Origin: Leucoraja erinacea
Lineage: Eukaryota
Length of the DNA stretch: 64,000 bases
Reading direction: 5' to 3'
Assembly: GCF_028641065.1 (NCBI RefSeq)
Contig: NC_073400.1
Span: 29,450,001-29,514,000 of the forward strand
Positions within the stretch are counted from its first letter, which is position 1, and every line of letters starts with the position of its first letter. Positions 644 through 63,945 of this stretch are shown here, in pieces. The position numbers and the translations under genes were made by a program. The notes under the pieces were generated by a model. The model was not told the DNA's origin, did no database searches, and was given only the letters and a program-made list of their open reading frames with translations.

Positions 644-734
644 CTTAGAGTCTCTTGTGAACACCGCGGTTGAGATACTCCAGATCACAAGCAGGAGAAA
701 GAACATCCAGCGCCCCACTTTCCATGAGATGTAA
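644..734 (-). CDS. Gene A TM exon (SYISWKVGRWMFFLLLVIWSISTAVFTRDSK), charged activating-type
   Basis: gcccag/gtaggg, 91 nt, phase 2 to 0; clear paralogue of the 91-nt exon at 44006-44096. Confidence 0.8.
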
Positions 735-3700
735 CTGGGCAAAGGTCAAGAAATACAGAGTCAATGGGAGGAAACGAGGCGGTTTATCTTTAAAGCATTT
801 ACCTGTTATCTGCTTCATAATCTTGGTGAAGTGGAGCGGGGCGAAGCGGTAGCGTCAGTGGAGACCATCTTTGTAAAAGAACGGGTGTTGGACTGGGGGG
901 GGGGGGGGGGGGGGGGGACAACATATGATCACCAATTGTTGACATCATTGCTGGGGCATGGCTACAAGACTGGGAATGAGAGACTACGCGGTTAAATGGA
1001 TTCAGAGAAGACAGATAAATAAGTCATGAGCTGGGACAGTGAATACAAAACAGATGGACACAAAATGTTGGAGAAACAGCGGGAGTGGCAGCATCTCTCT
1101 AGAGAGAAGGAATGCGTGAAGTTCCAGGTCGAGACCCTTCCTAAGACCGAGAATCACGGGAGAGGGAAACTGTGGATGTGGAAGGATACAAAGAACAGTG
1201 TGATACCCTGGAAGAAATAAAATGCAGCTGCAAGATTATAATAAAATCCATTTGGATAGACAGGAATAATAAAAACGGATCAATTCCAATAATGGAAGGG
1301 AGATGAGGCAATAAAAATGGAAACAGATGAGGCCAATTAATAAAATAAATTTAAAAATGATTATGCTTAATGACACACCCTGGATACTTCGTGGATCAAC
1401 GCGGTAGGTGTGTGGATGGAGGAATTGTGTTCGAAAAATCGGTTAAAGATTCGCTCATAACGGCGTGGCTTTCATGAACATTTGCTAACGCAAGTATAAC
1501 ACAAGAGTGTGATAGAAAGTCAGATATATTTCAAATGTGATAAGATAAATAACAACGTGTTATCACTTTCATGGCTATATTATGATTGAATATTTAATGG
1601 TTTCAAGTATCAACGAGTAAGAGAGAGTCAGTTAACTCATTTTGCTGTATTCGGTCTGATTCAAGACTATTTTCTCAAATTCTGCGCCAGCGATTTTCTG
1701 GTGTATGGCCCCACCAATGACAAGGTGTTACCACAAGTGATATCAAGGGGAGTGTGGTGTAGCCCATCATTCATAATGCATTTCCCTATCAGCATCACCC
1801 AAGAGCAAGTCACACCAAAGCCAAACTGGAAGACTAGGGTTTGGGAACTATATTAATCTCACAGCATGGGATGAGGTGAGTGATGGAGCAGTCATGTTGA
1901 ATACTGCAGGGAGCGCTCTCTGAAAAGCATCAAATGGAGGAACTTGTTCTTATCATCCAAGCATGTACACAACACAATGAGATGTAAACCAGTGCGATTC
2001 CCCTTCTGATGAGTTAACTAATAACTGGTTTGCAAGACACACTATGGAAACAGGCCATTTGGCCCTTCGGGTCTGTGCTGACCATCAACCGCATTTACAC
2101 AAATCCTGTGAGAAGAAGTTTGGTCTTTAGTTGTGGGAGTCAGTAGGTTTATAATAGACATGGGTCGATAGTCTATCTCCTGTGATGGAGACGGTATGAT
2201 CGAGAAAGGGGAGGAGGGGGTTGAAGATGGTCCAAGTGCGTTTGAGTGCCAGGTGGAGTGCAGGAGACCATTCCCTCTGCAACCCTGTGGAATGTCCCAA
2301 TTCTACTCCTATCCCTTATGACCTTATGACCTATACCTCCCTAGTTATCTCTCCCTTTCCCATCCAAACCACCCTCTCCCCAATTCCTTCCCCATTCAAC
2401 TGCAGGAAATGCAACATCTGTCCCTATAACTCCGCCCTCGACTCGGTCCAAGGAACTCAACAGTCATTTGAGATTCGGCTGAGTTAGCGTGAACCGCCTC
2501 GAACCTCATTTATTGTATCAGGTGTGGACTCTTATACATCAGCAAGACAAAACGTTGACTGGACGATCGTTTCACTGAACACATATGCTCAGTCCGCCTG
2601 GGGCTATTTGATCTCCCAGTTGCTAAACTATTTACCCCCCCCCCCCCCCCTCCCATTCCTACACTGACTGTTCTATTCTGGGCTTTCTCCATTGCCAGAG
2701 TGAGGCCAAATGGAAATTGGAGGAACAGCGCCACACATTTCGCTTGGGCATTTACAGCCAAGCGGTATAAATATTGATTTCTATAACTTCAAATAACCCT
2801 TGCACCCCCTTGCTCTCCGTCCCTCCCCCATCCTAGTCATTGTACCAATTTCACTGTTGTCTTGTAGTGTCTCATTGTCCGTACAACTCGTTTTCAGCTA
2901 GCCCACAGCTAACTATGGATCGTTTCATTCATCATCGTTACTTTTGTTGCATATCTTTCATTCAATGTTTTATATCTTTCTATATCACCGTCGATATCGC
3001 TCTCGTTTCCCTTTCCCCTGACTCACACTCTGAAGAAGGGTCTCAACCTAAAACGTCACCTATACCTTTTCTCCAGAGACGCTGTCTGACCCGACGAGTT
3101 ACTCCAGTTGTTTGTATCTATATTCAGTTTAAACCAGCATCTGCAGTTCCTTCCCACACAATGAAAGGCAAAATATGCAGAACACACATAGACGGCACCT
3201 AAGTTCGGGGTCTTGGCATTGTGAGGCTGTGGTTCCATTGGCTGTGTCTGGGCATTCAGATCAATAATCTCTCGGGCCTTTAATGCCAGTGAACGGAAGA
3301 CACAACTTTCTCCCAATTGAAGTAATCCCAATCAAAACACCAGTAATTAGTACATGGCACCTTTCATTGGAATCAGAGTAGTTTACCTTGATGAAGCATT
3401 GGATCCTTTCGAAGTTTCACAAGAATATTCAAGTCCTGTTAGAACAAGGAAATAAAAATCAGTTTCACTGATTTTCACTTGCTGTTGAACAAGAGAGCAT
3501 GCTTGTCCGATGTAAGGAGTTTATAGATTTAATAGACAGGGCAATGTTTCTCCAGTGTAATTTGTAGAAAATGGGAGATGCTTGCACAACTCAGGTAGAA
3601 CTCAGGTCGCCGACATTAGGGCGGCACAGCGGTAAGAGTTGCTGCCTTGCAGCGCCAGAGACCCGGGTTCAATCCTGACTACGGGCACAATCTGCACTGA

Positions 3701-6700
3701 CTTCGTATGTTCTCCCTGTGACCGCGTGGGTTTTATTCAAATGCTCCGGTTTTCTCCCACATTCTAAAGTCGTGCAGGTTTTGAGGTTAATTGCCTTCTG
3801 TAAATTGTCCCTAGTGAGTAGGATGGAATTGGTGCACCGGTTAAAGGCAGTTGCTTCCACCTGGATTTCTAAACCCAACTAAAGGAGGTGATTTCATGCG
3901 AGGGATATTGCCTGGGATGAAACATTACAGTTCGAAGGAGAAGGCTGGATAGATGGGGATTTTAATCCATATAGGAAAAGAAGGGGGAACCTATTACTGA
4001 TGTCACTGTAAAAATATTTTCAAGCTGTGTAAACATAAGAGGCAGTTCTAGCCGGGAAGCTGGTCTACACCAGCAATGGGAAATCCGTGGCTGGAGCCCA
4101 GCAACCAAGTATTGACAAATGGACCATAATATTATCATTTTAATCTTGATAAGTTAATTAAAGAACGTGCATGGATTTCAGGGTGTCGGGGGTTATGGGG
4201 AGAAGGCAAGAGAATGGGGTGAAGAGGGGAAGATACATCAGCCATGATTGAATGGTCTATTTCTGCTTCTATCACATGTGATTTTATGAACCACCCCACC
4301 CCCACTTCCCCTTCTTCTCCTCATCCCCTCCACTACTTACCAGTGCCGTCGATTTTCACTAGGAAACTGCAGGACACGTCATTGCTGGAGATGGACACGT
4401 TGACCATTTCACTGGATTTTGATCCTTTATTATTTGAGGCTGTGCAATAATATTGATGGTGCTGGTGTTTGAAGGATTGACAATGTAGATCCAGGGCATT
4501 GTTGTCTGAGATCTTTGAATCCCCAGATGGGGTCTTTTCATACCAGGTGTGGTTAATGGGAAGCGATCCCCGGACCGACTCACAGGACACTGTCACCGAG
4601 CCCCCGAGACAAGAGACATTGTCTGGTGACAGACACCCAAGCACAGGAACAGACACGGGTTCTGTGGGAAAGGAGCAAACAGTCAGACACTGAGTGAACA
4701 TCTGAAAATCAAACACTCGCCAATATCCACCATCTCTGTATCTTAGCCAGAGCCGCCAGGTTGGAATCTGACCCATCCATCTACATAGGGTCATAGAGGC
4801 ATGCAGTGTAAGAGCAGGCCTTTCGGTCTAATTTGCCCCCGCTGACCAACATGCCCATCCACACTAGTTCCACCTGCCCTTGCTTAGCCCATAAGCTTCC
4901 AAACGGAAGAGACCGTGCATTTACTCGATCTATTCGTCGTATGATTTTGTAGCTGCCATAAGATCATCCCTCATCTTCCTGCTCTCCCAGAAATAATGTC
5001 CTAGTCTGCTCAATCCCTCCATGGAGTTCAGACACTCAAGTCATGGCAGCATCCTTGTAAATCTTCTCTGCACCCAATCTTACTTGATAGCATCTTTCCT
5101 ATAACATGGTGATGAATACTGACCACAGAGCGGACATATCATCAGACAATCTTCGATTCTCTTTTACATTTCAGGAATTGCCAGCAGGAAAAAGGGAGCA
5201 TTGTTTATATAACTGTCGGACCCATCCCATCTACATAGATTCGTAGAGTCATACAGTAGAAACAGGCCCTTCGGCCTAACTTGCCCGCGCTGACCAACAC
5301 GCCCAATCTACACTAGTTCCACCTGTCCTTTCTTGGCCCTTAACCCTCTAAACATATCCTATTCGTGTAACTGTCCAATATTTTCTGAAATGTTACGTTA
5401 GTACCTGCCATAACTACTTCCGTCGGCATTTCGTTTCATGGACCTACCAATCTTTGTGTAAACACGTTACTCGCCAGGTTCCTGTTAAATCATTCCCCCC
5501 TGATATTAAAACTATGTCCTCTGGTTCCCGATTGCCCTACTCTGGGCAAAAGACTGTGTATTTACTCGATCTATTCCTCGCGTGATGTTTGTGATTTTTT
5601 AAAAAATTTAATAAATATTTTTATTAGAATCAATGTTCAGTAGTATATACCGTGTTTTACATATTACATTTAGTGTGCAACTTCTTGTTTTAAATTTATT
5701 AGTACACAGCAGCACCATCTCTCTTTGTTTTACAATTCCAGCATCTGCAGTTAATATTCTTTTAATCCGAGCCTCTGCTTTTAATCTGAACATTCAAACA
5801 CCTCATTAGTGCAACAGTATCACCATCAACAACTTTTTAATTTCCTTGCACAGAATAGTTGATAGTGATAATGTTGCACAAATGAGGTGTGTGATTGGCG
5901 GTATTGTAGAATTGTGTGTAGGGAGCGAATGGGAAAGTGGAATAATATAGAACTAGTGTGACCAGTGATCGCTAGTTGGTGAGGACTCGGTGGGTCGAAG
6001 GATCCGTTTCCATGTTACATTTGTAAACTACAACTAAATATCCGGGTGAACATGTTTCTGTAAACTCTACAAACCTTTCACATCTTTTATTTTATAAATC
6101 GGCGACCAGAACTGTACACCAGACTCCCACCTAACAAATATTTTGTCCGTTGCCAAGGTGGAGACATAAAGTCACCCATTGAGAAACCTACCTTCAGAAA
6201 CTTGGAGATGTACTTTAAATGTTGGTTCGCCAGGTGTAGTAATTCCACAGCTGTACCATCCTGTATCTCCAGAGTTAAGATCCTCCACAGTCACAGTAAA
6301 TATTCCTCGTGCCGGGTTATCTGACATTGACACTCTTCCACTCTGTCCATGTTCCCCATTTGTTTCCACTGCATGTGTACACTGGCGACTTGTCCCGTTG
6401 CACCAGAATTTTGTGTGTGAGCGGTACACTGCTGCATAATGACAATCGATTGTGATCGCTCGTCCCACAACCCCGTGTACTTCGCTCTCTACCCGCAGTG
6501 CACCTGAAACGGAAGGAATCATCTTTCATAAATTGAAGAGAAAAATTAGCCTTTCACAAACATATACATTATAGTATGCTTCAATGTGTACAGGGGAGTC
6601 CGCGCAATGATTTTCTTAACTCTGTTGAATTCCACCTAGATTGCGATGAGAGACATATACTGTACACCGACCCTCACCATCTGCACAGGTCGTTCCAAAG

Positions 6701-8599: not shown

Positions 8600-8653
<54 letters not shown>

Positions 8654-11600
8654 ACCCCCTCCACTCTTTAAATAGTTCCCATTGCGTCCGTCCTCCACTT
8701 TTTGATTCCACACATCGTGGGAAAATGAACATGCTTCTCGTGATTGATACATTTCTATAAGTTCCTCGCTCAATCATTTCCACACCAAGGAATGAAGTCT
8801 GAGTTTGTCCAATCGCTCCCTGCGTCAATCACGTCCTGTCCAGGCAGTTCGGACCAGGGGGCTAACCTGCCCCGGGTGGACTGAACGCAGTCTGTTGAGC
8901 TCTGGGGACTGATTCCCTGTTTATTATTCTCCGTGTATTCAGACCGTGAGCAACACTTGTTTCTCACTGATCTCTCGGATTATTAGTTTGAGTCGGAATG
9001 CAAACCTCTGACAGGGTGACATTTCATACAGTTCAGAGGCAGGGAAATGTGCTGAGCATCCCACTTGAAGTGGGTGGCCGCTCAGTGGGACAGAGCCTGC
9101 ACTGGGTGAGAGCAACATGAGTGGGGTTTCCCGACCCCCGCCCGCTCCCCGCAGGTCTCTGCACTGCCGCGGAGCCTCGGGATATCGGTGCTGCCCTGAC
9201 CCTTCCCGGAGAAAACATGGACCAGGCATTTCAGTGGAGACGTCAAGTCCATCGCTACGAAACGTACCGTCAGATACTTGGAGATGTACGGAAAACATTG
9301 GATGGTCGGCAGACGTTCTAATTCCACAGATGTATCTTCCTGTATCTCCAGAGTGAAGATCCTCCACAGTCACAGTAAATATTCTTAGTGCCGGTATATC
9401 TGTGATGGACACTCTTCCACTCCGTCCGTGTTGCCCATTTGTTTCCACCATATCTGTACATTGGCGACCCCACCCACGGCACCAGTATTTTGTGTGTGAG
9501 CGGTACTCTGTTGCATAGTGACAATCGATTGTGATCGCTCTTCCCACATCTCCTGTTACATTCTTCTTCCCCCAAACTGCAACTGAAATGGAGGGGAAAA
9601 ACTTTTAGATGGAGAGCAAATGAACTGTTTAATGGAAATAGATACATTTCGAAGATCACATGAAAGAAAACATAAACGTTCCATGATGTGTCATATTGCT
9701 TCACGCCCAATGTCTCCGGTCTGAAGTGCAGGCAGTGCTGTTATTGTACCAGTTGTGTCAGTGTTCTGTCCCCGGGGTCAGTACAATTTGGATTCACTTC
9801 CCACTCCAGATCCCAGAGCAGAAACTGGGCTGGAATCGCAATTCGGTACTGAGGGAGCGCGGCAGTGTTGCAGGAGCTGCCTTTCAACAATCCCTGGCGG
9901 TGCCCGGCCTCTCACCCCACAGAAAGACCCACTTTGCTATTGAATTGGCGGTGCCGCCGGCTGCGCTGCCAACATTCTTCTCTCAACCGACACTGGGCCG
10001 GACCCGTGTTTAGATATTCACCGCCTTTACAACGCCCTGACTGAGGACAGTGGACGGACGGGTTACAATAAAGCGGATCAAAAGATAAGGAGCAGGATGT
10101 TTGAAGGGTATAAATAAATATTTTTAAACCGAGAAGATAGAGGTACCTGAATTGCCTCAATGGACGAGGTGCTGGTAAGTGGGATGAGTATTGATAGTAC
10201 TGAATGGTCAACATTAACACAGTGACCCAAATGCGATACCAACGTCTAGGAGTTAACTGTGGCCACATTTACTGATAATTTCTGATCGCTTCACATATTT
10301 GAGTGTCGGTCATGTGGAGATGATGGAAAGTGAAAATGCTTGGACTGATGTCACTGCAAACCTAGTTTAAAGCTGTGTAAACATAAGAGGCAGTTCTAGC
10401 CCGGAAGCTGGTCTACACCAGCACTGGGAAATCTATTTATGGAGCCCAGCAACCAAGTATTGACAAATGGGCCATAATTCCATCATTTTAATCTTGATAA
10501 CGTAATTAAATAACGTGCATGGATTTCAGGGTGTCGGGGGTTATGGGGAGAAGGCAGGAGAATGGGGTGAAGAGGGGAAGATACACCAGCCATGATTGAA
10601 TGGTCTATTTCTGCCGCTATCCTATGAACCACCCCGCCCCCACTTCCCCTTCTTCTCCCCATTCCCTCCACTACTTACCAGTGCCGTTGATTTTCACCAG
10701 GACACTGCAGGGCACGTCACTGCTGAAGATGGACATGTTGACCATTTCACTGGATTTTGATCCATGTTGATTTGAGGCTGTGCAATAATATTGATGGTGC
10801 TGGTGTTTGAAGGATTGACAATGTAGATCCAGGGCATTGTTGTCTGAGATCTTTGAATCCCCAGATGGGGTCTTTTCATACCAGCTGTAGTTAATGGGAA
10901 GGGATCCCCGGACCGACTCACAGGACACTGTCACTGAGCCCCCGAGACAAGAGACATTGGCTGGTGACAGAAACCCAAGCACAGGAACAGACACGGGTTC
11001 TGTGGGAAAGGAGCAAACAGTCAGACACTGAGTGAACATCTGAAAATCAAACACTCGCCAATATCCACCATCTCTGTATCTTCGCCACAGCTGCCTGGTT
11101 GGAATCTAACCCATCCATCTACTTAGAGGCATATAGTGTAGAAGCAGGCCAACATGTCCATCCACACTAGTTCCACCTGCCCTTGCTTAGCCCATAAGCT
11201 TCCAAACGGAAGAGACTGTGCATTTACTCGATCTATTCGTCGCGTGATTTTGTAGCTACCGTAAGATCATCCCTCATCCTCCTGCTCTCCCAGAAATAAA
11301 GTCCTAGTCTGCTCAATCCCTCCCTGGAGTTCAGGCACTCAAGTCATGCTTCAGGCTCTCAACCGACACTGGGCCGGACCCGTGTTTAGACATTCACCGC
11401 CTTTACAACGCCCTGACTGAGGACAGAGGACGGACGGGTTACAATAAAGCGGATCAAAAGATAAGAGACCATAGGTGCAGGAGTAGGCCATTCGGCCCCT
11501 CGAACCAGCACCGACATTCACTATGATCATGGCTGATCATCCACAATCAGTACCCCGTTCCTAAATTACCATATACCCCCTAGTGCCGCTATCATTTGGA

Positions 11601-14600
11601 GTTGCATCTAACTCTCCCTACCTGACGTTTAGGGCCGAGACCCATGCTCAGACCCGAAACTTCACCCATTCCTTCTCTCCAGAGATGCTGCCTGTCCCGC
11701 TGAGTTACTCCAGCTTTTTTTTGTCTATCTTTAATTGACTTTTATTTCCTTTTCTCAACAGAATCTGAATCTATTCGCGAGTCGTTGACAACTGTAGCGT
11801 TCAGTTCAAATACAAAAGTAACACCCGAAAACAGTCATCAGGAAACCACTGCGCCCAGTTTCTCTCACGGGTGTAATGTTCTGTTGCTCAAGTTTTGATT
11901 GGCCTTACTTTTCCATATGAGAGTTGGAGACACATGGAACTGTAGATACATACATAGATACATAGATGCGTAGACAATAGGTGCAGGATTATGCCATTCA
12001 GCACTTCCAGCCAGCACCGCCATTCTATGTGATCATGGCTGATCATCCACAATCAGTACCCCGTTCCTGCCTTTCCCCATATCCCTTGATTCCGCCAGCC
12101 TAAATAGCTCTATCTAACTCAAACGTATGCACCCAGTGAATCGGCTTCCACTGCCGTCTGAGGCAGAAAATTCCACAGATTCACAACTCTCTGGTTGAAA
12201 AAGTTTTTCCTCATCTCCGTTCTAAATGGCCTATCCATTATTCTTAAACTGTGGCCCCCTGGTTCTGGACTCGCCAATATCGGAAACATGTTAGGTACAC
12301 AAAAATGCTGGGGAAACTCAACGGGTGCAGCAGCATCTATGGAGCGAAGGAAATAGGCGATATTTCGGGCCGAAACCCTTCTTCAGACTGTTTCCTGCCT
12401 CTAGCGTGTCAAATCCCTTAATAATCTTATATGTTTATATCCCTCAATAGCAAGAAGGTCCTTCCTCAAATTTGGAGTTCAAAACTGCACCCAATATTCC
12501 AGGTGTGGTCTCACTAGGGCCATGTACAACAGCAGAAGGACTACATTTCTCCTGTGCTCAAATCCTCTTGTTATTAAGGTCAACATGCCGCTAGCTTTCT
12601 TCACTGCCTGCTGCACCTGCATGCTTTATTTCAGTGAGTGATGAACAAGGACCACCCAGATCTAGTTGTACTTCTCCTTTCCCCAACCTGACACCATCCA
12701 GAAAATAATCTGCCTTCCTGCTTTTGCTACTAAAGTGGATAACCTCACATTTATCCACATTAAACTTAATCTGCCACGCATCTTCCCACTAACACAACCA
12801 CTCACCCACTCACCACTCGCTCACTCACCACCCACCTCCAGGTCCCTTATCGGAGAGCGTTACGAGCGTGAAATCGCACACCGGCGAGATTCGGAAGCAA
12901 TTTCTTCACAGCTGTTATCAGGCATCTGAATCATCCTACCACATCCAGAGATCGGTCCTGAACTCCCATCTACCTCTTTGACGACCCTCGGACTACCCTT
13001 GATCGGAATTTGCTGGCCTTACCTTACACTAAACGGTATTTCCTTTTCATGTATCTATGTGCTGTAAGAGGATAGATTGTAATCCTGTATTGTCTTTCTG
13101 CTGGAGACGTCAAGTCAATCGCTGCGAAACGTACCGTCAGATACTTCGAGATAAACGTTAAATATTGGATGGTCGGCAGATGTTGTAATTCCACATCTGT
13201 ACCATCCTGTATCTCCATCCTGAAGATCGTCCACAGTCACAGTAAATGTTCCTCGTGCCGGGTTATCTGTGATTGACACTCTTCCACTCCGTCCGTGTTG
13301 CCCATTTGTTTCCACCAACACTGTACATTGGAGACTCCTCCCACGGCACCAGTATTTTGTGTGTGAGCGGTTCTCTGCTGCATAGTGACAATCGATTGTG
13401 ATCGCTCTTCCCACAACTCCTCTTACCTCCCTCTTTGCCCACACTGCACCTGAAACTGAGCGGAGAAAATTTCAGATCGAGAGAAAATTAACTGTTTAAT
13501 TGAAATACACACATATTGAAGATTACATGAAAGAAAACTTAAATCGTTCCATGATGTGTCATATTGCTTCACAGCCAATGTCTCCGGTCTGAAGTGCAGA
13601 CAGTGCTGTTATTGTCCCAGTTGTGTCAGTGTTCTGTTCCCGGTCAGTACAATTAGGGTTCACTTCCCACTCCAGATTCCTGAAAAGAAACTGGGCTGGG
13701 ATCGCAGTGCGGTACTGAGGGAGCGCGGCTGTGTTGCAGGAGCTGCCTTTCAACAATCCCAGGCGGTGCCCGGCATCTCACCCCACAGAAATACCCCACT
13801 TTGCTATTTTATTGGCGATGTCGCCGGCTACGCTGCCAACATTCATCTCTCAACCGACACTGGGCCGGATCCGTGTTTTTTTAAATTATCAAATTATTTA
13901 TTCAATTATTAAAAATAATATTTACACTACAATAAAACAAGAACCGAACACCATAATACAAGACAAATAAATATTCTAAATAAACGACTATACTTGTCAA
14001 GGATGAATTCAACCACAGGCGGTGCCCAGATGTCCCGGGAATCCCCCAGGTGCCCGTGGACAGCGCCTAGTCATTCTCTAGTACCAAGCGGACGCGGAAA
14101 GCCGACCCGTGTTTAGACATTCACCGCCGCCAATGCCTTTACAACGCCCTGACAGAGGACGAGTTACAAAAAAGCGGGTCCATTACCGGAGAGCGTTATT
14201 GGCGTGACAACGCAAACGGCCAGATTCGGGGAAAGTTTCTTCACAGCTGTTATCAGACATCGGAATCATCCTCCCATAACCAGAGAGCAGTGCTGAACTA
14301 TCTACCTCTTTGGTGACCATCGGACTACCCTTGATCGGACTTTGCTGGCCTTACCTTACACTAAACGCTATTTCCCATTAATGTACCTATGCACTGTAAG
14401 GGGATCGACTGTAATCATGTATCTGGCAGGTTAGCATGCAACAAAAAGCTTTTCTCTGTAACTCTGTACACGTGACAATAAACTGAACTTGAATTTCAGC
14501 ACGACTGGGCCGCGGATCCGAGAGCGGATGGAGAGAGAGTTGGGGGTGGGTGGATAGAGCGAGGACAGTGGTTCAGTCTCAGACTCCGGGGAATTGTTGG

Positions 14601-19652: not shown

Positions 19653-19716
<64 letters not shown>

Positions 19717-21274: not shown

Positions 21275-22087
21275 ACATACCCCCATCCACATAAACGGGA
21301 CTGAGGTGGAGCGCGTCTCCAACTACAAATTCCTCGGGATAGATATCTCAGAGGATCTGTCCTGATTCCTCAATGTCACCAAACTGATCAAAAAGGCACA
21401 GCAGTGCCTCTACTTTCTGAAGAGGCTTAAGAAAGACCTTTGCCCCCCCCCCCCCCCCCCCCCCCAACACCACCTCCCTTCCCCCCACCCCCCCCCCCCC
21501 CCCCAGTTCCTGTCCAACATCTGCCGCTGTACCATTGAAAGCATCCTGACCACCTGCTTCACGGTATGGTACAGCAGCTGCACAACAGCTGACAGGAAGG
21601 CACTGAAACGCGTGGTGGAAACCACTCATCACATCATCGGTGCCCCGCTCCCTGCCATGGATGCCCCTCCACCGCAAACGGTGTCTGAGACGGGCCGGGA
21701 AAATCATTAAGGACCCCTCTCACCCTAACCATGGACTATTTGCCCTCCTCCCATTAGGGAGGCGGTACGGGAGCCTCAGGTCTCGCACAAGCAGGCTGAG
21801 GAACAGCTTTTTCAATAACACCATTATACTGCTGAACTCAGAGTCCCCAACGCTAGGTATCTTTTATACTCTTTTATCTGTATATATTATATTTAATTCA
21901 TCCACATTGTACATATTGTTTTAACCAGTATTTTTACTACTTTGCACTCTGATTAGATGCTAAACTGCATTTCGTTTTACCTGTACTCGTATTTGTGCAA
22001 TGACAATAAAATTGAATCTAATCTAATCTAATCTAATCTAATCTAATCTAATCCAATCTAATCTAATCTAATCTAATCTAATCTAAT
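21275..22087 (+). mobile_element. Rex1/Babar-like LINE 3' fragment ending in (ATCTA)n
   Basis: INGTEVERVSNYKFLG..KKAQQCLYFLKRLKK; microsatellite tail at 22016-22087. Confidence 0.7.
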
Positions 22088-22611: not shown

Positions 22612-22922
22612 NNNNNNNNNNNNNNNNNNNNNNNNNNNNNNNNNNNNNNNNNNNNNNNNNNNNNNNNNNNNNNNNNNNNNNNNNNNNNNNNNNNNNNNNN
22701 NNNNNNNNNNNNNNNNNNNNNNNNNNNNNNNNNNNNNNNNNNNNNNNNNNNNNNNNNNNNNNNNNNNNNNNNNNNNNNNNNNNNNNNNNNNNNNNNNNNN
22801 NNNNNNNNNNNNNNNNNNNNNNNNNNNNNNNNNNNNNNNNNNNNNNNNNNNNNNNNNNNNNNNNNNNNNNNNNNNNNNNNNNNNNNNNNNNNNNNNNNNN
22901 NNNNNNNNNNNNNNNNNNNNNN
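22612..22922. other. Assembly gap (N run)
   Basis: Ns. Confidence 1.
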
Positions 22923-45063: not shown

Positions 45064-45100
45064 ATGTGGGTTCCGATTCTTCTAATTTGTTCCTTGCCGG
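45064..45100 (+). CDS. Gene D leader exon (MWVPILLICSLP)
   Basis: 37 nt, GTGAGT donor. Confidence 0.85.
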
Positions 45101-48100
45101 GTGAGTAACAAACACAGTGAGATACTTCGATATTCAATTTTCTTTTGCGCCGTTTCCGCGTCAGAGATGGTTTTAAAATGCTGGTGCTTTAGACTTTAGA
45201 GATACAGCGTGGAAACTGGCCCTTCGGCCCACCGCACGGACCAGTAATCACCCCGCACACTAGCACTATCCTACACTCTAGGAGCAATTTACTGTTAACA
45301 AGAGCCAATTAACCTACAATCCCGAAGGTCTTTGGACAGTGGGAGGGAATTGGAGCAGCCGTGTCACAGAGAGAACTTACAAACTTCGAATAGACAGCAG
45401 CCGCAGTCAGGATCGATCCTGAGTCTCTGGCGCTGTTATAAGGCACCAACTCCACCGCTGCGCCACTGTGCGCCCTAATTCCAAGGATAGAAATTAATAC
45501 CGATGATGGATTATTTTCCCACATGTTACTTGTTCGTTAACATTCGTTGTTTCCATAAACTAAGGCACTGTCTGATTCATCTCTCCCCCACTGCGGACAC
45601 TGGACTTTGCCTTTGGAACTGGTGCGCTACAATGCCAAGAGCTATAGCCTGCATTCTATTAATCCCCCCTCGCTTTGCCTATTGTACTTGAGTTTGTCTT
45701 GATTGTATTTATGTACAGTATTATCTGGTTAGATTGATAGCACGCAAAACAAAACTTTTCGCTGGATCTTCGTACACGTGGCACTAATACACATCAACCT
45801 ACTTCCCTTTTAACTGCGCCACGAATAAAGACAAATAGTCGCAAAATGATCTGTCTTAGTTTGATATGATAATGTAAAGATTACAAGTTATAGGAGTAGA
45901 ATTAGGCCATGCGGTCCATCGAGTCTACTCCGCCATTCAATCATGGCTGATCCCTGCCTCCATTTTTCCTGCCTTCTCCCCATAACCATTGACACCCGTT
46001 CTAATCAAGAACATTCAATTTCTGCCTTAAAAATATCCCCTGACTCGGCCTCCACAGCCCTCGGAGGCAATGTGTTCCACGGTTTAACTACCATCTGACC
46101 AAAGCAGTTCCTTCGCACCTCCTTTCTAAAAGAGCGCCATTTAAATCTGCCCTTATAACCTCTGGTCCTAGACTCTCCCACCAGTGGAAACATCCTTTCC
46201 ACATCCACTCTCTTCATGCCTTTCATTATTCTCTAAGTTTATTAACCGTGATTTAGCAGCAAAAAATATCTGAATGAATGGAAAATGTCCTCTTCCATAA
46301 AGGGTAATGTTTCTAATGCGCTCTGGCTATCGTTGAAGGAACAGTGGAATTAATATCCCAAATCGTTAAATTGAAGAGAGTGCAGGGACGATTCACAAGG
46401 ATGTTACCGGGACTGGAAGACGTGCGGTATAAGGAGAGGTTAGATAGGCTGGAGGCACTACAAACTGTCGGAATCTTGAGCAAATAAATACAACTAGACT
46501 AAGTGGGACCCGTTGGGTCCCATGTTCACACGGGAAGCTGGTCCTCAAAAGCAATATTCCACCTCACCACCAATTCCAATATTTCTGGCCAGTGGTGGGG
46601 GGTGGATGGGGAGGGGGTGCTTTCTGGAGAGCTAGTATGGGTTTTGTGGGTCGAAGGGACTGGTTTCCGTAGGGGCTAGTATGGACATTGTGGGCCGAAT
46701 AGATTGTTGGGCCGGCAGCTCAGTCACTCAGGCCTGGTGAGCTAGCAGCTCAGCTACTCAGGCCTGGTGGGCTGGCACCTCAGTCACTCAGGCCTGGTGG
46801 ACTGGCAGCTCAGACGCTCAGGCCTGGTGGGCTGGCAGCTCAGACGCTCAGGACTGGTGGGCTGGCAGCTCAGTTACACAGGCCTGGTGGCTGGCAGCTC
46901 CGAAACTGCCAGAAATTCTGCCCAAAACAGGCGGGAGAGTGTGAGAGAGAAGGGGGAGAGGGTGGAGAATCAATTTTAGAAATTTTTCATCTTTTTCTGC
47001 AGATCACAGCAGTGAAGGTGGAAATTCTATCGTGGCCTGGATCTCACAGGGAGCAAAGGAAGGGAGGGAGAAAAATACTGGGGTGAGGTTTAATGCTTGC
47101 AGGGGGAATGCTTACTGATGGTCCGAAGGGACTCCTGGGCTAGTACAGGCCTGATGAGTCAAAGGGACTATTTAGTATAATCTGAGTGAGATCTAAGTGA
47201 AAGGCACTTTTTCTGTAGTTTTCCTGGCCTCGCATGGGACAAAATGCTCCTCCTGGGCTAATACGGGCATTTTAGGCAAAAGCGATTGGTTTCTCGGCTA
47301 ATAGGGGCCGAAATTAATGGTTTCAGGCAGGCCAAACAACTAATTTTATTTCATTTCCAATTGCATTGCAGTTTCAAGCACATGGCAGGCCAAGCCAAAC
47401 AGCAGATTGCATTTTCACTTCATTTCCATTGCCATTGCACTTTCAAGCACAGGGCAGGCTCAAGCCAAACAGCTCATTGCATTTTCACTACATTTTCATT
47501 GCCATTGCAGTTTCAAGCAGGCCAAACAACTAATTTCATTTTCAATGAGGGCTCACAAATCATTTATTCAAGTACATTGCATACTCACGGTGTTCTGTAG
47601 TATCCCAGTTCAGGCAGAGAGTCGTGACCTCTCCCTCGCCATCTTGTAGACAGACTGAGCCACGCCCACAATTCTGGGTTTTATACTCCCTCCCCACTCC
47701 CATCGGAAGGGACGTGGTCTTCATTACGTGATTGACAGGAGAGAGAATCTCAAGATTTATAAAATACTAATAAGTCTTTATTTTTCATTGATGGGAAACA
47801 TCCTCGGGGCCTGCGCAGTGGAGGACTCTGAGTAAGATGGGCAAAAAATCACAGCCATATGTGGTAGCGTTTTTTCTAAAATCAAAGCAGAGTCCAAACA
47901 GGAAGTGATCAAGATGACACCTTTAATTACATAGATGCCAGAGGAATTCAGCTGGTCGGGTTTGCATTGTGTTTGCCTTTAAAATTACCCCTCAACCCCC
48001 CCAACCCCCATCCCTTCTTCAGTTTCAGGCGTGTTGTGGGGAGACGGGTTGTTGTCGGCAGCTGTGGGAAAAGCGATCACAACCGACTGCCATTATGATG

Positions 48101-51100
48101 AAAAATATGGATCAAACACGAAGTACTGGTGCCGAGGGAAGAGGCGCCAGTGTTCCCTTTTAGTGGAAACAGACGGGAAACACGGACGGAGTGGAAGAAT
48201 GTCAATCACAGATAACCCAGCACGAGGAATATTTACTGTGACTGTGGAGGATCTTATCTTTGAAGATAATGGTTGGTACAGCTGTGGAATTACAACACCT
48301 GGCGAGGATCAGATATTCAGCACAGAGCTACGTGTGTATCGCGGTACGTTTATCAGCCATGTACTTGACCACTCCACTGAAATGCCAGATCCATGTTTTC
48401 TCCGGGAAGGGTCAGGGCAGCACAGATATCCCGAGGCTCCGCAGCAGTGCAGAGACCTGCGGGGAAACCCCACTCATGTTGCTCTCACCCAGTGCGGGCT
48501 CTGTCCCACTGAGTGGCCACCCACTTCAAGTGGGATGCTCAGCACATTTCCCTGCCTCCGAACTGTATGAAATGTCACCCTGTCAGAGGTTTGCATTCCG
48601 ACTCAAACTAATAATCCGACAGATCAGTGAGAAACAAGTGTTGCTCACAGTCTAAATATCTGGAGAATCATAAACAGGGAATCAGTCCCTAGAGATCAAC
48701 AGACTGCGTTCAGTCCTCCCGGAGCAGGTCAGCCCGCTCCCCGCCCCCACCTCAGGGATCAGTCATTCCCTCCGCACACCGACGTCTCTTTCACTCTCTC
48801 CCTCTGCCCCATCAATGCGCCCCCACCCCCAGCAACCACTGCCCACCCACCGCCCGGCAACTAGCCAGCCTCTCCCTGATGGGAGCCAGATTGCAACCTT
48901 GATTTTCACAGTGAACCATCCTCAGCTTCATCGCTGCTCATCCGATCTAAAGCGCTGCTGTGCACTGCAAACGCTATACACATGGAGAGGTACATCAATT
49001 GGAATGTATTCGAGGGATATGGGCCAAATGTGGGCGGGGGGTCTAGTGTAGATGGGACATGTTGGTCGGCATGACCAGGCGGGGCCCAAAGGGTTACCAC
49101 AGTGTATGACTATAGCTCTAATAGCAGACTTGGTAGCTTGGGCAGTTGGGAGGAAGCAGTGAAACAGAGAGATTTTAACATTTGGAGAAAAAGCGCTGAA
49201 ACAAGCCTTTCGCCCCACCAGCGATCTCCGCACACGAGCACTATCCTACACACACTCGGGACAATTTACGGTTATACCAAACCAATAAGCTTGCAAACCC
49301 GTTCGGCTTTGGAGTGTGGGAGGAAACCAGAGCACCCGGAGCAAACTCGTACGGTCGCAGCGAGATCGTACAAACTCCGTACGGAGAGCACCCGTAGTCA
49401 GGATTGAGGATTAAAAGGCTGATGCTCTACCGACGGAGGTATTCAGACTCTTAATGGGTAGGGGTGGATGAGATTGTGAGATTCCAACGACGAAAGACAT
49501 GGACATCCGACAGTGTTTGACTTTTTCAGGTGTAGGAAGGAACTGCTGATGTTGGTTTACACCGATGATGGACACACACACGCTGCAGCAAGTTAGCGGT
49601 CAAGCAGCATCTCTGGAGAAAAATAATAGGTGACGTCCGGGTCGACTGAGATTCAGGGGAGAGGGGAACTAGAGACATGAAAATGTACAATGCATGAAAG
49701 GTGTGTTGAAAGAACAAATCAAAGTCAGCCAGATGAACATGGAAAGGCGGAGCCCACAATGATCCATTGTGGATTCAAACAGTTAAACTAAACAAGACGA
49801 CAAGGAAATCAATCGGACCGACTAGGGTGGAGGAGGGAGGGAGGGAGTTAGATGAAAAGCAATGGTTTCCTCAACATCTATAAATTAAAATCTATCTTTG
49901 AATTTCAGGTATTCACTCAGTGTTTGATTGTTTGCCCATTTCCCACAGAATTCGTGTCTGCTCCAGTGCTTAGGTTTGCATCGCCAGCAAATGTCTCCTG
50001 TGTCGGAGGCTCGGTGTCAGTGTCCTGCGAGTCTTACTCGGGAACCCGTCCCATAAACTACACCTGGTTTGAGAAGGCCCCGTCCACGGATTTAATGACC
50101 TCCAACACCAGTGTACTGGACATCCATTGCCAGTCCTTGCAATACGACCACCATCAATATTACTGCACAGCCGCAAATATTCAAGGGGAAACAACCGGTG
50201 AAGTGTTGGACGTGGAGACCATCTCCATGGGAGAAGATAACTGCAGTTATGTGATGCGACTCAGTAACTCTGGTAAGTGGTGGAGCGAGTGACCAGCTTA
50301 GTCTTGCCGAAGGGCAATTGGCTTAGTCTTGCCGAAGAGCAAGTGCCGCGTAATCGCCAACTCCTGCACCTATTGTCTATTGCCTATTGTCTATTGTCTA
50401 AAAGGCCGAGGCACACGTCAAGCATGTCCGTGACATTGACGTTACAGAGTGAAGGAAGGAACTGCAGATGCTGGGTTACACTGATAATAGACACAATATG
50501 CTGGAGTAACTCAGCGGCTCAGGCAAGGAATCTCTGGAGAAAATGACGTTTCCAGTTCCGACCCTTCTTCAGGCTGGGAAGCAGTTTATTTCAATGCAAC
50601 CATTTGTTTTGTGCAGTACTGTCGGAGGTTGCATTAGATGCAATATAGCTTGATTTGTTCATTAGGGAGCGCAGCTGGTAGCACGCAACATAAGCTTTTT
50701 CATTGCACCTCGGTACACGTGACAATGAACCAAACTAAACTAAGCGTCAAAGGTTACGGGGAGAGGGCAGGAGAATGGTGTTAGGGGAAAAATAATCAGC
50801 CATGGTCGAACGGCGGCGTAGATGCGATCGATTGAATGGCCTAAATCGACGCCTGTGTGTTATGGTCTTATCTCGCCGTGTACTCGACGCTTTGCTGGGT
50901 CCATGGCTCCAATGGGTGCTGGTTCTTCAGAAATGGGCCTCTCAATGTTGACAAAGAGCAGTCGCCTGGCTGGAATATCCTCTGAAATTGGATTTGGTGT
51001 CCAGCTAAGCTGAGCCCTTTAAATGCCCCCCATAGCAACCCTGATCCTCGGAGATGGGGAAGAACCAGGAATTCCACATGTGTGTTGGCGGTATCGTTCA

Positions 51101-54905: not shown

Positions 54906-54924
54906 CCTGATGGTTCAGCCTGAT

Positions 54925-54965
<41 letters not shown>

Positions 54966-58860: not shown

Positions 58861-61800
58861 ATGTGGATTCCCATTCTTCTCATCTCCTCGCTGCCGGGTG
58901 AGTGAAAGCCAGATGTTGATATTCCAATGTTCAATGTTAGTTGGGGTCCCGTGCACCCTTTCCACAGCAGAGATGGTTATGTGTGTGTACACATGTAATG
59001 GGGGAAATGGAACTCAGTGCATTGTGGTGATGGATCTGAATTCACATTTGAATATCTAGACTTTGTTCGAGTATTGATGAAAGGCATAAAATAGCGAATA
59101 AATTTGGAGCAGATATTCCAAGACACCTGGACCGAAGAACAGAGGTTCCAACATCACCAGGAAGTTAATTCTACACTAACAAAATGTGTTTAAAACTGAG
59201 GTGGAAGTCACGATTGTGGACTCATTGTGTCAGTTCAAATGTCCCCTGCATTTGTCCAACTCAACTTTGTCTTAAACCCAACAATTCCCCGGAGTCTAAA
59301 ACTGAACCACGGTCCGCGCTCTATCCACCCACTCCCAACTCTCTCTCCATCCTCTCTCCCGTCTGCGGCACAGTCGTGCTGAAAGGTCCAAGGCGAGCCG
59401 GGGTCATCGGGAATAGAACATGGCCCAGATGACCAGCGGGTTCCAAATTCAGTTTAGTTTATTGTCACGTGTACCGAAGTAGAGTGTTTTAGTTGCGAGC
59501 TCCTCCGTCAGCAGAAAGACAATCCATGATTGTTATCGATCATCTTACAGTGCATAGATACAAGAAAAGGAAATAACGTTTAGTGTAAGGTAAAGCCAGC
59601 AAAGTCCGATCAAGGGTAGTCCGAGGGTCATCAGAGAGGTAGATGGGAGTTCAGCACCGCTCTCTGTTTGTGGTAGGATGATTGAGATGCCTGATAACAG
59701 CTGGGATGAAACTGTCCCTGAATCTGGCGGTGTGCGTGTTCACGCTAGTAACGCTCTCCAGTAAGGGACCCGCTTTATTGTAACCCGTCCGTCCTCTGTC
59801 CTCAGTCAGGGCGTTGTAAAGGCGGTGAATGTCTAAACACGGGTCCGGCCCAGTGTCGGTTGAGAGATGAATGTTGGCAGCGCAGCCGGCGGCACCGACA
59901 ATGAAATAGCAAAGTGGGGTCTTTCTGTGGGGTGAGAGGCCGGGCACCGCCTGGGATTGTTGAAAGGCAGCTCCTGCAACACTGCCGCGCTCCCTCAGTA
60001 CCGCACTGCGATCCCAGCCCAGTTTCTGCTCAGGGATCTGGAGTGGGAAGTGAACCCTAATTGTACTGACCCGGGGACAGAACACTGACACAACTGGCAC
60101 AATAACATCACTGCCTGCACTTCAGACCGGAGACATTGGCTGTGAAGCAATATGACACATTATGGAACGTTTTAAGTTTTCTTTCATGTAATCTTCAAAA
60201 TGTATCTATTTCCATTAAACAGTTCATTTGCTCTCCATCTGAAAGTTTCTCCCCTCAGTTTCAGGTGCAGTGCGGGGAAAGAGGGAGGTAAGAGGAGTTG
60301 TGGGAAGAGCGATCACAATCGATTGTCACTATGCAGCAGAGTACCGCTCATACACAAAATACTGGTGCCGTTGGTGGACTATCCAATGTACAGTTTTACT
60401 GGATACAAATGGACAACACGGACGGAGTGGAAGAGTGTCAATCACAGATAACCCGACACGAGAAATATTTACTGTGACTGTGGAGGATCTTCAGTCTGGG
60501 GATACAGGATGGTACAGCTGTGGAGTTTATAAATTTGGCTGGGATCCAATGTTTGACGTTCATCTGCAAGTATATGATGGTACGTTTCGCAGCGATTGGC
60601 TTGACGTCTCCACTGAAATGCCTGGTCCATGTTTTCTCCGGGAAGTGCCACTTTAAGTGGGATGCTCAGCACACTTCCCTGCCTCTGAACTGGAAAAAAA
60701 AATCTAATAATCCGACAGGTACAGATCAGTGAGAAACAGGTGTTGCTCGCGGTCTAAATACCCGGAGAATAATAAACAGGGAATCAGTCCCCAGAGCTCA
60801 ACAGACTGCGTTCAGTGCTCCCGGGGCAGCGCAGCCCGCTCCCCGCCCCCACCTCGGGGATCTGTCACTTTCTCCCCCACCGCGCGCGCTCTCTCTCTCT
60901 CTCCCTCTGCCCCGTCAACGCGCCCCCACCCCCTGCAGCCACTGTCCACCCACCGCCCGGCAGCCAGCCAGCCTCTCCACCCGGACATTTCCCTGGTGGT
61001 AAGGAGAATAATTCATCTTTCGCCCCATCACCCGTCGCACACAGTATATAATCCTCCAACATTTTCGCCACTTCCACCGGAATCCCACAACTAGCCACAT
61101 ATTTCCATCTCCACCGCTTTCTCATCTCCGAAGAGACCGTTCCCTCCGCAACTCCCTGGTCAACTCGTCCTTTCCCACCCAAACCACCCCGTCCCCAGGT
61201 ACCTACAACTGCAGCAGATGCAACACCTGGCCCTATACCTCCTCTGTTCACTCCTTCTAAGGACTCCAACAGTCTTTTCGGGTGAAGCAGCGGTTCACTT
61301 GAATCTTCTCTAAACTCTTCTACTATATCCGCTGTTCCATGTGTGAACAAGATGGGAGACCAAGCGCAGACTCGGCGATCGTTTCGCTGAACAACTGCGC
61401 TCAGTCTGCCTCGGCCTACGCTAATTCCCGTTTGCTAAACACTAACTCCCCCTCCCATTCCCAAACTTACCTTTCTGTCCTGGACCTCCTCCACTGTCAG
61501 AGTGAGGCCAAACGCAAATTGGAGGAACAGCGCCTCATATTTCGCTTGGGCAGCTTACAACCCAGCGGTTTAAATATTGACTTCTCAAACTTCAAGTAAC
61601 CGTTGTTGTACCCCTGTCTCAATCCCGCCCTAGTTCTCCATTTAGATTCACTGTCCTCTTCATTATATTTTACAGATTGTATGCCTCGTTGTCACCTTCC
61701 CTTCGTCTGACAATGATCCATTCTGCATTTCCGTTTAACATTGTCAACTTTTAGCACTTTTTTTCCCTCCTTATTCTTCCATTACTCTTCTGTCACCTAG

Positions 61801-63945
61801 ACCTGACTCTCAGGCTGCAGAAGGCTCTCGACCCGATTCTTCACCCATTCCTTCTCTCGAGAGATGCTGCCTGCCCTGCATAGTTACGATAGCATTTTGT
61901 GTCTATCTTAAAGGGATCGTAATTAATTTTCGCCTGCATTGAACAGGGTTATTCGCACGCTGGTCTTCATCAGTGAGAACATTCAGAACATAATTTGAGA
62001 TAATATGCTTCAGACGTGCAGATGTTGAGTCAACATATTGGGAATTGTGTTCAGCTTTAGTCCCTCAGCTCCTAGAAAAGTGCCGTTGAGGTGGACAGCG
62101 TGCAGAAAGGTTTTAGGGCGACGCTGCCTGGACAGGATGGGATTGACGCAGGGAGCGATTGGACAAACTCAGACTTCATTCCTTGGTGTGGAAATGATTG
62201 AGCGAGGAACTTATAGAAATGTATCAATCACGAGAAGCATGTTCATTTTCCCACGATGTGTGGGATGAGGAAGTGGAGGACAGGGGTAATGGGGACTATT
62301 TAAAGAGGGGAGAATAGTAAGGTGTCACTTACTGTAATGGCATGTTTTGTACAGATGAGTGGCCGAAGCTGAACACAATTCGCCCAAGTTCGACCTCAAC
62401 AACATATGTACAACTGAAACATAACATCCCAACTTCTGTTCTGAGGGACAACATTGTCCACACATTGGGTGATATTTATATGGAACCTGCTGCCAGAGGA
62501 GGTTGTTGAGGCAGTTAGAATAATAGCAGTTAAGATGCATTTTGGACAGTTGCGTAGATTTGGGATCATTGCGAGTGATAAGGGAGAAACATGGACACAA
62601 GGAAATGGCCCAGAAAGACATGTTGGTCGGCATGAATGAGCTGTTGTGATGGGCATCTTTCGGTTCTCTATAACTCTAACCTTCTTCGGTTTCTGGGCTT
62701 CACACACTCACAGAGATGTGGATGAGCCGGTGAGATGTGAACCGGACGGTTCGGGCTGAGATAAAGGGCTGCTGAGATTTAGCACGTGTTTGGTTTTGAA
62801 CTGTTCATACAGGTGACTGAATGTTTGCTCCATTCCCACAGAACCCGTGTCTGCTCCTGTGCTCAGATATCTGTCACCAGCAAATGCCTCACGTCTCGGA
62901 GGCTCAGTGTCAGTGTCCTGTGCGTCTGCCAGTGGATCCCTTCCCATCCATTACACATGGTGTGAGAAGAACGAGCATCGGTGGTCAACGATCTTGTCTG
63001 GCAATCAACTGGATCTGAGTTGTGAAATCCTCGCCGGCCAACATCGTCAATATTACTGCACAGCCTCAAATAATCTTGGGACAAAACCGAGTGAAATACT
63101 CAACGTGAAAGTCTTCAAAGGAGAAGGAATGTGCAGTTATGTGACAGAAATGAACAATGCAGGTGAGTGTTAACTCATTCACCCTTGGGTGAACCATTCA
63201 CCAGTTTAAGAAGCACTGGCCTAGGCCACAGTTTCGCTGAACACTTGTGCTTGGTCTGTCGTGACCCAGAATCGCGCTTGAAAGACACCCCATTCTCAAC
63301 CTCCCCTGCTGATGCAGAGCAGCAGCAGTTTACACCATCTGCACGATGCACTGCAGCAACTCACCAAGACTCCCTAGACAGCGCCTTCCAATTGCAACAG
63401 GCTCCGTGTTCAATGCATTATTTTTCACCATTCACACCCACATTGGCTGGGAAGCGCTTTTGGAACGACCTGTACAGGTGGTGAGGGATAGTGTACAGTA
63501 TCTGTCTCTCATCGCAATCTAGGTGGAATTCAACACAGCTAAGAAAATGATTGGGCGGAGTCCCTTGTATACTAGAATGTGTATGTTTGTGAAAGGCTAA
63601 TTTTGCTCTTCAATTTATCAAAGATGCTTCCTTTAGTTTCAGGTGCACTATGGGCTGAGAGCGAAGTAAGAGGGGTTCTGGGAAGAGCGATCACAATCGA
63701 TTGTCACTATGCAGCAGTGTACCGCTCACACACAAAATACTGGTGCCGTGGGACAAGTCGCCAGTGTACACATGTGGGTGAAACAAATGGGAAGAGCGGA
63801 AGAGCGTCATTCACAGATAACCCGGCACGAGGAATATTTACTGTGACTGTGGAGGATCTTCACTCTGCTGATACAGGATGGTACAGTTGTGGAATTACTG
63901 CACCTGGCGAACCAACATTTAAAGTATATCTCCAAATATCTGAAG
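58861..63945 (+). CDS. Gene E (5' part): inverted paralogue of gene A. Exons 58861-58897, 60265-60579, 62842-63162, 63643-63945; continues beyond the window
   Basis: Leader MWIPILLISSLP (an in-frame upstream ATG lies at 58849); V, C2 and V exons with canonical splice sites. Confidence 0.88.
60265..60579 (+). CDS. Gene E Ig V exon 1
   Basis: tttcag/gtacgt, 315 nt. Confidence 0.92.
60985..61910 (+). mobile_element. Penelope-like element fragment in a gene E intron
   Basis: GETKRRLGDRFAEQLRSV (GIY-YIG-like) at about 61354-61407; RKLEEQRLIFRLGSLQPSGLNIDF C-terminus; absent from the paralogous gene A intron. Confidence 0.7.
62842..63162 (+). CDS. Gene E Ig C2-type exon
   Basis: cccacag/gtgagt, 321 nt; paralogue of 7757-8077. 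Confidence 0.92.
63643..63945 (+). CDS. Gene E Ig V exon 2
   Basis: tttcag/gtaggt, 303 nt (9 nt shorter than its paralogue 6192-6503, frame preserved). Confidence 0.9.

What the first reader, a model, noticed from the sequence alone, without database searches (positions are those of the whole stretch)
8870..9267. Intron downstream of V exons is more conserved than the V exons themselves, even between distant paralogues
Seen: a roughly 400-bp GC-rich tract after the V donor recurs in gene A (8870-9267), B (31330-31725), D (48344-48720) and, with deletions, E (60580-60820). By hand count A and B differ at about 10 of 270 nt, while their V domains differ at roughly 30 of 104 residues. I see little similarity in the other introns of A, B and D. 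Inference: V exon plus flank is exchanged between activating and inhibitory genes by gene conversion, with this tract as the homology anchor, as is known for mammalian paired receptors such as SIGLEC5/14. Alternatively it is a constrained enhancer.
Basis: partly seen in the sequence, partly recalled or inferred. Interest (0 to 1): 0.7.

Follow-up and report, generated by a model that had tools for sequence, protein, structure and literature searches.

The report
Intron copied between skate receptor genes
In a skate cluster of immune-receptor genes, a 400-base intron stretch is 93-95% identical between old gene copies whose flanking exons differ far more, likely because the copies overwrite each other's intron DNA while the predicted ligand-binding exon stays distinct, a pattern already described in cattle and primate gene families.

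Summary
The window is a skate MDIR (CD300/pIgR-like) cluster; its exons match little-skate gene models at 100%. The first ~400 nt of the V-C2 intron are 93-95% identical among A, B and D. The core (+46 to +270) differs by only 3-5%, against synonymous divergence of 0.44-0.50 in C2 and 0.19-0.53 in V.

It is not a dispersed repeat. It does not look frozen either: core pieces in four more distant organisms differ by about 6%, like D's V orthologue (8%). A stingray homologue is about 0.3 diverged, and the core carries several deletions. The best reading is intergenic gene conversion of the intron.

D's V exon was not exchanged. The V end next to the tract is among the most divergent parts of the exon. 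V exons lacking the tract are just as homogenised. B and D both have uncharged transmembrane exons, so exchange is not limited to on/off pairs. The closest precedent is bovine CEACAM32, not SIGLEC5/14. A cis-element or soluble-isoform role is untested. Interest is modest.

The parts
8856..9267 (-). Shared intron tract, copy A (intron +1..+412); its 3' end is a deletion junction relative to E
8998..9222 (-). Core of the tract in A (+46..+270), 3-5% from B and D
9268..9582 (-). V exon A, second V of a six-Ig-domain gene; 100% to little-skate model P0034, 94% to Amblyraja P0040
7757..8077 (-). C2 exon after V A
8920..8925 (-). AATAAA at intron +343 in A (also in E; CATAAA in B and D), 14 nt after the stop (8939-8941) of a 109-codon read-through of the V frame; function untested
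13135..13449 (-). V exon A2 (first V of the same gene; leader 15021-15057); its intron matches the tract for only 33 nt
6192..6503 (-). V exon Z (third V of the same gene); lacks the tract
644..736 (-). MDIR5-type TM exon with Lys/Arg at its outer edge, predicted end of the A gene (in-phase stalk exon 3387-3435)
31217..31725 (-). Tract, copy B (6-nt insertion, 4-nt deletion)
31726..32040 (-). V exon B; the gene is MDIR2-like, with leader 34495-34531, C2 29948-30256, uncharged TM 26777-26868 and a tyrosine-motif tail 23408-23722
48029..48343 (+). V exon D, the most divergent V (dS 0.44-0.53 to A, A2, B, E); leader 45064-45100, C2 49949-50272, uncharged TM about 52824-52948, no tyrosine-motif tail exon found
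48344..48875 (+). Tract, copy D (17-nt deletion after 48461; first 45 nt about 18% diverged)
60265..60579 (+). V exon E (leader 58861-58897); recent duplicate of the A module
60580..60978 (+). Tract, copy E, with 126-nt and 31-nt deletions
63643..63945 (+). V exon F (second V of the E gene); lacks the tract (only 54 nt of its intron are in the window)

Best explanation
The tract is the 5' part of the V-C2 intron of skate MDIR receptor genes, 93-95% identical between old paralogues, and it is likely kept alike by repeated gene conversion between copies while the V exon beside it escapes overwriting. Shown: the paralogues are old (C2 dS 0.44-0.50), the core differs by 3-5%, similarity decays away from the core, and the tract occurs only behind V exons in this window. 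Inferred: V exon plus about 520 nt of intron is the only long homology block left between these genes, so ectopic conversion is confined to it. Conversions in the intron are neutral and persist. Conversions into the V exon are likely removed by selection for distinct binding faces or, for D, blocked by 26-29% sequence difference; the data cannot separate these two barriers.
For: Core vs C2 synonymous sites p<=1e-9 for all 3 pairs. Regional histories disagree: in V, D-private sites dominate (59 vs 24 and 18); in the core they do not (3, 7, 3 for A, B, D; p=0.02). Gradient 3-5%, 8-12%, 17-25%. Not frozen across species: 6 listed core pieces from organisms G, I and K differ from the window consensus at 72/1149 sites (6.3%), and 2 pieces of D's V orthologue at 38/481 (7.9%), p=0.23. 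A high-depth contig in G (85 vs 16 for the D orthologue) is 11/185 off, while the matching contig in X1 equals the window consensus. The stingray model P0005 reads into the homologous intron at ML distance 0.27-0.33 for +45..+111 (95% lower bounds 0.14-0.18), where A, B and D differ at about 3/66. The core tolerates deletions: 126 and 31 nt in E, 17 nt in D, whole tract in A2 and Z, and two deletion types in organisms I, J and K. Contigs in 3 of 4 distant organisms bridge D's V into the tract, so the arrangement is not an assembly artefact. Precedent: PMC7042247 section 9.
Against: No direct orthologue-versus-paralogue tree of the tract could be built, because no genome is held. The cross-species pieces are the longest contigs (6 of 32 listed; 14,111 not shown), overlap, favour divergent copies, and include copy-private changes of 1.5-3%. 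Close organisms B, D and H show the core consensus almost unchanged (0-2 sites), as constraint would also predict, though organism B is only 4/184 off in D's C2. P0005 is one predicted model from a distant V subfamily and may be a relaxed copy. The V tree leaves D unplaced on a long branch, so D's age rests on dS alone. Selection against V overwriting is not shown: V dN/dS is 0.9-1.5 among A, A2, B, E and 0.6-0.7 to D. Why the peak sits at +46..+270 is unexplained.
Confidence: 0.7

Rival explanations
1. The core is a functional cis element under purifying selection: an intronic enhancer, or the 3' UTR/terminal exon of a soluble V-only isoform made by intronic polyadenylation. It may act together with conversion.
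For: The similarity peak is about 225 nt long, and the tract is mildly GC-rich. An in-frame stop at codon 7 of the intron is shared by B, A2, Z and F, and A and E carry AATAAA. The first ~165 nt are still recognisable in a stingray. The core consensus is nearly unchanged in 3 close organisms.
Against: Constraint alone needs a rate 6-10% of synonymous, yet the core drifts about 6% in organisms whose D V exon is 8% off, and about 0.3 in stingray. It is deleted repeatedly. No reading frame is kept: read-through is 6, 25, 75 or 109 codons. No Rfam match. Folding z is -1.0 and -1.5. A recalled NF-kB pattern matches in A and D, but the window has 10 hits vs 9.2 expected. B and D have CATAAA.
Confidence: 0.13
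2. One reading: V exon plus flank is exchanged as a unit between activating and inhibitory receptors, with the tract as the homology anchor.
For: A-B V dS 0.185 vs C2 dS 0.44 (p=0.02). B has tyrosine motifs and the A gene ends in a TM with Lys/Arg. A-E V synonymous difference exceeds their upstream-intron difference (11/76 vs 25/478, p=0.005), as input from other donors would give.
Against: D's V was not exchanged. The V 3' part is among the most divergent parts of the exon. Tract-less Z and A2 have V dS 0.15-0.17 to B. A run test on 132 polymorphic V sites found 1 of 10 pairs significant, A2-E, which are recent duplicates. B and D both have uncharged TMs.
Confidence: 0.08
3. One-off mosaic formation: D and B each gained the tract once, by a double unequal crossover, with no recurrent conversion.
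For: Star-like core differences (3, 7, 3 private sites) fit one homogenising episode of about the age of the A-E duplication (5-9%).
Against: The stepwise gradient suggests events of several ages. D orthologues in organisms I, J and K carry the family letters at +15, +19, +27, +28 and +44, where the window's D differs (read from the depth columns), which suggests lineage-specific boundaries. D's V-tract link is shared across species.
Confidence: 0.07
4. The tract is a young dispersed repeat inserted behind V exons.
For: High identity between copies, and at least 11 organisms hold 26-44% of its words.
Against: All 4 window copies start at the same donor, and there is no copy elsewhere in the window. 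Summed contig depth is about 50-270 over the tract vs 1e5-1e6 over repeats in X1, and 11-970 vs 1e4-1e5 in four other runs; depth is no copy number, so only the order of magnitude is used. A homologue sits at the same position in a stingray gene.
Confidence: 0.02

Closest known systems
Bovine CEACAM32 vs CEACAM1 (PMC7042247; passages and section 9 read)
   Same: [quoted passage not shown]
   Different: Here at least three old paralogues share the tract, the block is about 500 nt, upstream introns are unalignable, and the family is a cartilaginous-fish MDIR cluster.
Catarrhine L/M opsin genes (PMC3213168 abstract; PMC3924837 passages)
   Same: Introns closer than synonymous sites of exons between paralogues, explained by conversion plus selection on exons.
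   Different: Two genes homologous over their whole length with known selected residues; here homology is a short island and the selected residues are unknown.
SIGLEC11/16 (PMC5701461 passages), SIGLEC5/14 (PMC4042635, search listing only) and paired CEACAMs (PMC2832619 passages)
   Same: Conversion among Ig-superfamily receptors with different tails.
   Different: There the ligand-binding exon is what is kept alike (in most CEACAM pairs similarity barely extends into the introns); here the intron is alike and the V exon differs.
MDIR2, MDIR3, MDIR5 of Rostroraja eglanteria (P0089, P0046, P0065; Cannon et al. 2006 not held, recalled only)
   Same: Same V and C2 modules (V 67-85%, C2 54-86% for all but D); B matches MDIR2 in layout and tail; the A gene's TM is 90% to MDIR5.
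   Different: D is only 59-61% (V) and 49-53% (C2) to them. These are protein records and say nothing about the introns.

Membership tests
MDIR (CD300/pIgR-like) receptors | Modular V-set and C2-like Ig ectodomains homologous to MDIR2/3/5 | tested here: met
   Pfam V-set and Ig hits; identities; D is the most distant
MDIR (CD300/pIgR-like) receptors | MDIR-type TM and tail exons | tested here: met
   B tail and TM like MDIR2; 644-736 is 90% to the MDIR5 TM; D tail not found
MDIR (CD300/pIgR-like) receptors | Expressed, spliced transcripts | not testable with these tools
   No RNA run was offered; only NCBI models P0034, P0055, P0087
Intron-restricted conversion with exon escape (CEACAM32 / L-M opsin kind) | Intron divergence below synonymous divergence of the neighbouring exons | tested here: met
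Intron-restricted conversion with exon escape (CEACAM32 / L-M opsin kind) | Significant low-divergence tracts located in the intron | tested here: met
   Own permutation test, not GENECONV; 3 of 3 pairs by window, 2 of 3 by longest run; this test cannot tell conversion from constraint
Intron-restricted conversion with exon escape (CEACAM32 / L-M opsin kind) | Intron paralogues within a species closer than homologues across species | tested here: inconclusive
   Leaning yes: 3-5% within the window vs about 6% to distant organisms and about 0.3 to stingray; fragments only, no tree
Intron-restricted conversion with exon escape (CEACAM32 / L-M opsin kind) | Selection keeps the exon distinct | tested here: inconclusive
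   V dN/dS 0.6-1.5 in 10 pairs; a heterology barrier is not excluded
Paired-receptor conversion (SIGLEC5/14, SIGLEC11/16 kind) | Ligand-binding exon homogenised between the partners | tested here: not met
   V exons 72-88% identical; D not homogenised; A-B only partly
Paired-receptor conversion (SIGLEC5/14, SIGLEC11/16 kind) | Partners are one activating and one inhibitory receptor | tested here: inconclusive
   B predicted inhibitory; A gene has a TM with Lys/Arg, activating role predicted from recall; D uncharged with no tyrosine tail found
Paired-receptor conversion (SIGLEC5/14, SIGLEC11/16 kind) | Shared ligand and co-expression | not testable with these tools
   needs binding and expression data
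Dispersed repeat (SINE/MITE) | High copy number at unrelated positions | tested here: not met
   no whole-genome search possible
Constrained enhancer / conserved non-coding element | Rate far below neutral across species, intolerance of deletion | tested here: not met
   indirect and from fragments
Constrained enhancer / conserved non-coding element | Open chromatin or reporter activity | not testable with these tools
   no such data on hand

The most novel reading that the evidence does not exclude
The tract is a working module, either the terminal exon of a soluble V-only decoy isoform (conserved stop at intron codon 7, poly(A) signal at +343) or an immune enhancer. Gene conversion keeps it synchronised across many MDIR genes, so that receptors with diverging binding faces share one regulatory switch.
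Probability: 0.12. Interest if true: 0.55.

Novelty: new member of a known kind. Interest (0 to 1): 0.3.

Why it matters
It is a clear cartilaginous-fish example of an intron being homogenised beside a diverging Ig V exon. The contrast is strong: 3-5% in the core between exons at dS about 0.5. It warns that intron divergence next to MDIR V exons is not a neutral clock, so V-versus-intron tests of positive selection in this family can be inflated. It also points to D as a receptor whose binding domain may be protected from overwriting. The process itself is already described.

Tried and rejected
Whole-genome copy search: no genome held. Expression: no RNA holder listed, which is no evidence either way; all 8 runs laid were contigs. 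Coding tail: the 109-codon read-through of A found no homologue by itself (0 of 18 candidates). Among the best 150 of 2260 hits of the full read-through, only P0005 clearly extends into it (to residue 146). Blastx of 4 tract copies against 94 fetched proteins hit only P0005. Structured RNA: Rfam gave only an unrelated U6 copy; folding was unremarkable. NF-kB motif: chance level. Antisense orphan tail exon (lead e1-10275594): no tail-exon match in the tract. 'A is closer to D than to its duplicate E': only 12 vs 15 of 189 sites, 3 of them at E's deletion edge, so not used. GC-biased conversion: private changes 16 strong-to-weak vs 9 weak-to-strong, no support. V protein tree (45 rows): D unplaced. 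Literature: five searches for MDIR or CD300 in skate returned only PMC3031540 or nothing; two searches for the intron pattern returned nothing. Cannon et al. 2006 is not held, so absence from print is not established. No supplements were read.

Full report
Setting. The window holds seven V exons and six C2 exons. All 13 match three little-skate (Leucoraja erinacea) NCBI models at 100% (P0034, P0055, P0087). All but D are 67-85% (V) identical to MDIR2, 3 and 5 of the clearnose skate; D is 59-61%. No leader lies before V A, model P0034 chains the same six domains, and the TM at 644-736 is 90% identical to MDIR5's. B is MDIR2-like, with an uncharged TM and three tyrosine motifs. D has an uncharged TM, and I found no tyrosine-motif exon for it. 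E continues into V F and out of the window. That Lys/Arg at the outer TM edge means 'activating' is recalled, not tested.

Observation. The tract starts at the V donor in A, B, D and E. Tract identity is 93.3, 94.6 and 93.2% for A-B, A-D and B-D; V-exon identity is 83.8, 74.1 and 75.9%. V dS is 0.185, 0.53 and 0.44; C2 dS is 0.44, 0.49 and 0.50. The core (+46..+270) differs at 10/225, 6/208 and 10/208 sites, the next 125 nt at 8-12%, and the distal part of B, D and E at 17-25%. Core vs C2 synonymous sites gives p<=1e-9 for all three pairs. Upstream introns of A, B and D do not align beyond 33 nt. A and E share both flanks at 91-95%, so that pair needs no special explanation. A2 and Z keep only the first ~33 nt or less of the tract.

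Not a repeat. No copy lies elsewhere in the window. No genome was available, so I laid public contigs. In run X1, which holds D's own sequence without differences and may be the window's source, summed depth is about 50-270 over the tract and 1e5-1e6 over nearby repeats. Four other organisms show 11-970 against 1e4-1e5, with almost nothing beyond 48900. Depth is not copy number, but the contrast of about three orders of magnitude fits a family-restricted sequence.

Conversion or constraint. Constraint alone needs the core to evolve at 6-10% of the synonymous rate. Three results argue against that. First, in organisms G, I, J and K a likely D orthologue is present (V pieces 25/304 and 13/177 off), and in I, J and K one contig runs from the V into the tract. 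Six listed pieces over the first 300 intron nt (organisms G, I, K) differ from the window consensus at 72/1149 sites after removing D-private sites. That is indistinguishable from the V orthologue's 38/481 (p=0.23). I used 6 of the 32 listed pieces; they overlap, are the longest of about 14,000, and include copy-private changes. The cleanest is a high-depth contig in G that is 11/185 off, while its counterpart in X1 equals the consensus. Second, a Hypanus sabinus model (P0005) reads into the homologous intron. Its pseudo-translation gives a distance of 0.27-0.33 for +45..+111 (lower bounds 0.14-0.18), where A, B and D differ by about 3/66. It is a single model from a distant V subfamily. Third, the core is deleted repeatedly: 126 and 31 nt in E, 17 nt in D, an E-like deletion in organisms I and J, and another in J and K. 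On the other side, three close organisms show the consensus nearly unchanged, and no orthologue tree could be built.

What is exchanged. Site patterns disagree between regions: V groups A with B (59 D-private sites of 110), while the core and C2 are star-like. So D took up the intron without the V exon. A-B V exons look partly homogenised against their C2 exons (p=0.02). But tract-less Z and A2 are equally close to B (V dS 0.17 and 0.15), the V 3' part next to the tract is among the most divergent parts of the exon, and a run test found only A2-E significant of 10 pairs. The 'anchor' idea therefore has no support here. The simplest mechanism is that V plus about 520 nt is the last long homology block between old paralogues. 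Conversion is confined to it, persists in the intron, and is lost or blocked in the V exon. The last step is inferred.

Functional rivals. No frame is conserved: read-through lasts 6 codons in B, A2, Z and F, 25 in E, 75 in D and 109 in A. The tail has no protein homologue but P0005, no Rfam match and ordinary folding. A recalled NF-kB pattern occurs at chance frequency. The early stop and the AATAAA in A and E leave a soluble isoform open; no RNA data were available.

Comparison. [quoted passage not shown] So do L/M opsins (PMC3213168 abstract; PMC3924837 passages). In SIGLEC11/16 and most paired CEACAMs the binding exon itself is homogenised (PMC5701461 and PMC2832619 passages). I found no paper on conversion in MDIR genes in the held library, but the founding MDIR paper is not held, and PMC3031540 (passages) only names the family.

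Verdict. A real and strong signal, most likely ordinary intergenic conversion of an intron (0.7): a new member of a known kind, interest 0.3.

Noticed in passing
window 40076-44087 (+): A gene remnant with leader (40076-40112), stalk-like exon (about 42565-42670) and MDIR5-type TM (44004-44087), but no V or C2 exon between them.
   Followed up: partly
window 644-3435 (-): The A gene joins an MDIR3-type stalk exon to an MDIR5-type TM. The Amblyraja model P0040, which holds A's V orthologue (94%), joins the same stalk to an uncharged TM with tyrosine motifs: a possible tail swap between species.
   Followed up: partly
window 11762-11895 (+): An orphan stalk-like exon lies antisense inside the A2 V-C2 intron.
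   Followed up: no
window 4341-13449 (-): The six-domain gene looks like an internal duplication: C2 of A2 and of Z are 94.7% identical, and about 500 nt of first-intron sequence precede V A.
   Followed up: partly
window 48352-48389 (+): D differs from the family at 9 sites in the first 46 intron nt; likely D orthologues in organisms I, J and K have the family letters at five of them or more. Either a lineage-specific conversion boundary or a burst of change.
   Followed up: partly
window 52948-58860 (+): No tyrosine-motif tail exon found for D; NCBI model P0055 fuses D and E, and P0034 skips the TM at 644-736, both probably model errors.
   Followed up: partly
window 9268-9582, 13135-13449, 31726-32040, 60265-60579: Pairwise V dN/dS is 0.9-1.5, and A-E V synonymous difference exceeds their intron difference.
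   Followed up: partly
window 52715-52782 (-): U6 snRNA-like copy, 68 bits, in D's intron just before the TM exon.
   Followed up: no
window 8601-8659, 19655-19715, 21443-21504, 33547-33589, 54925-54963; gaps 22612-22922, 30649-30995: Long C or G runs and two N gaps; possible local assembly weakness, none inside the tract.
   Followed up: no
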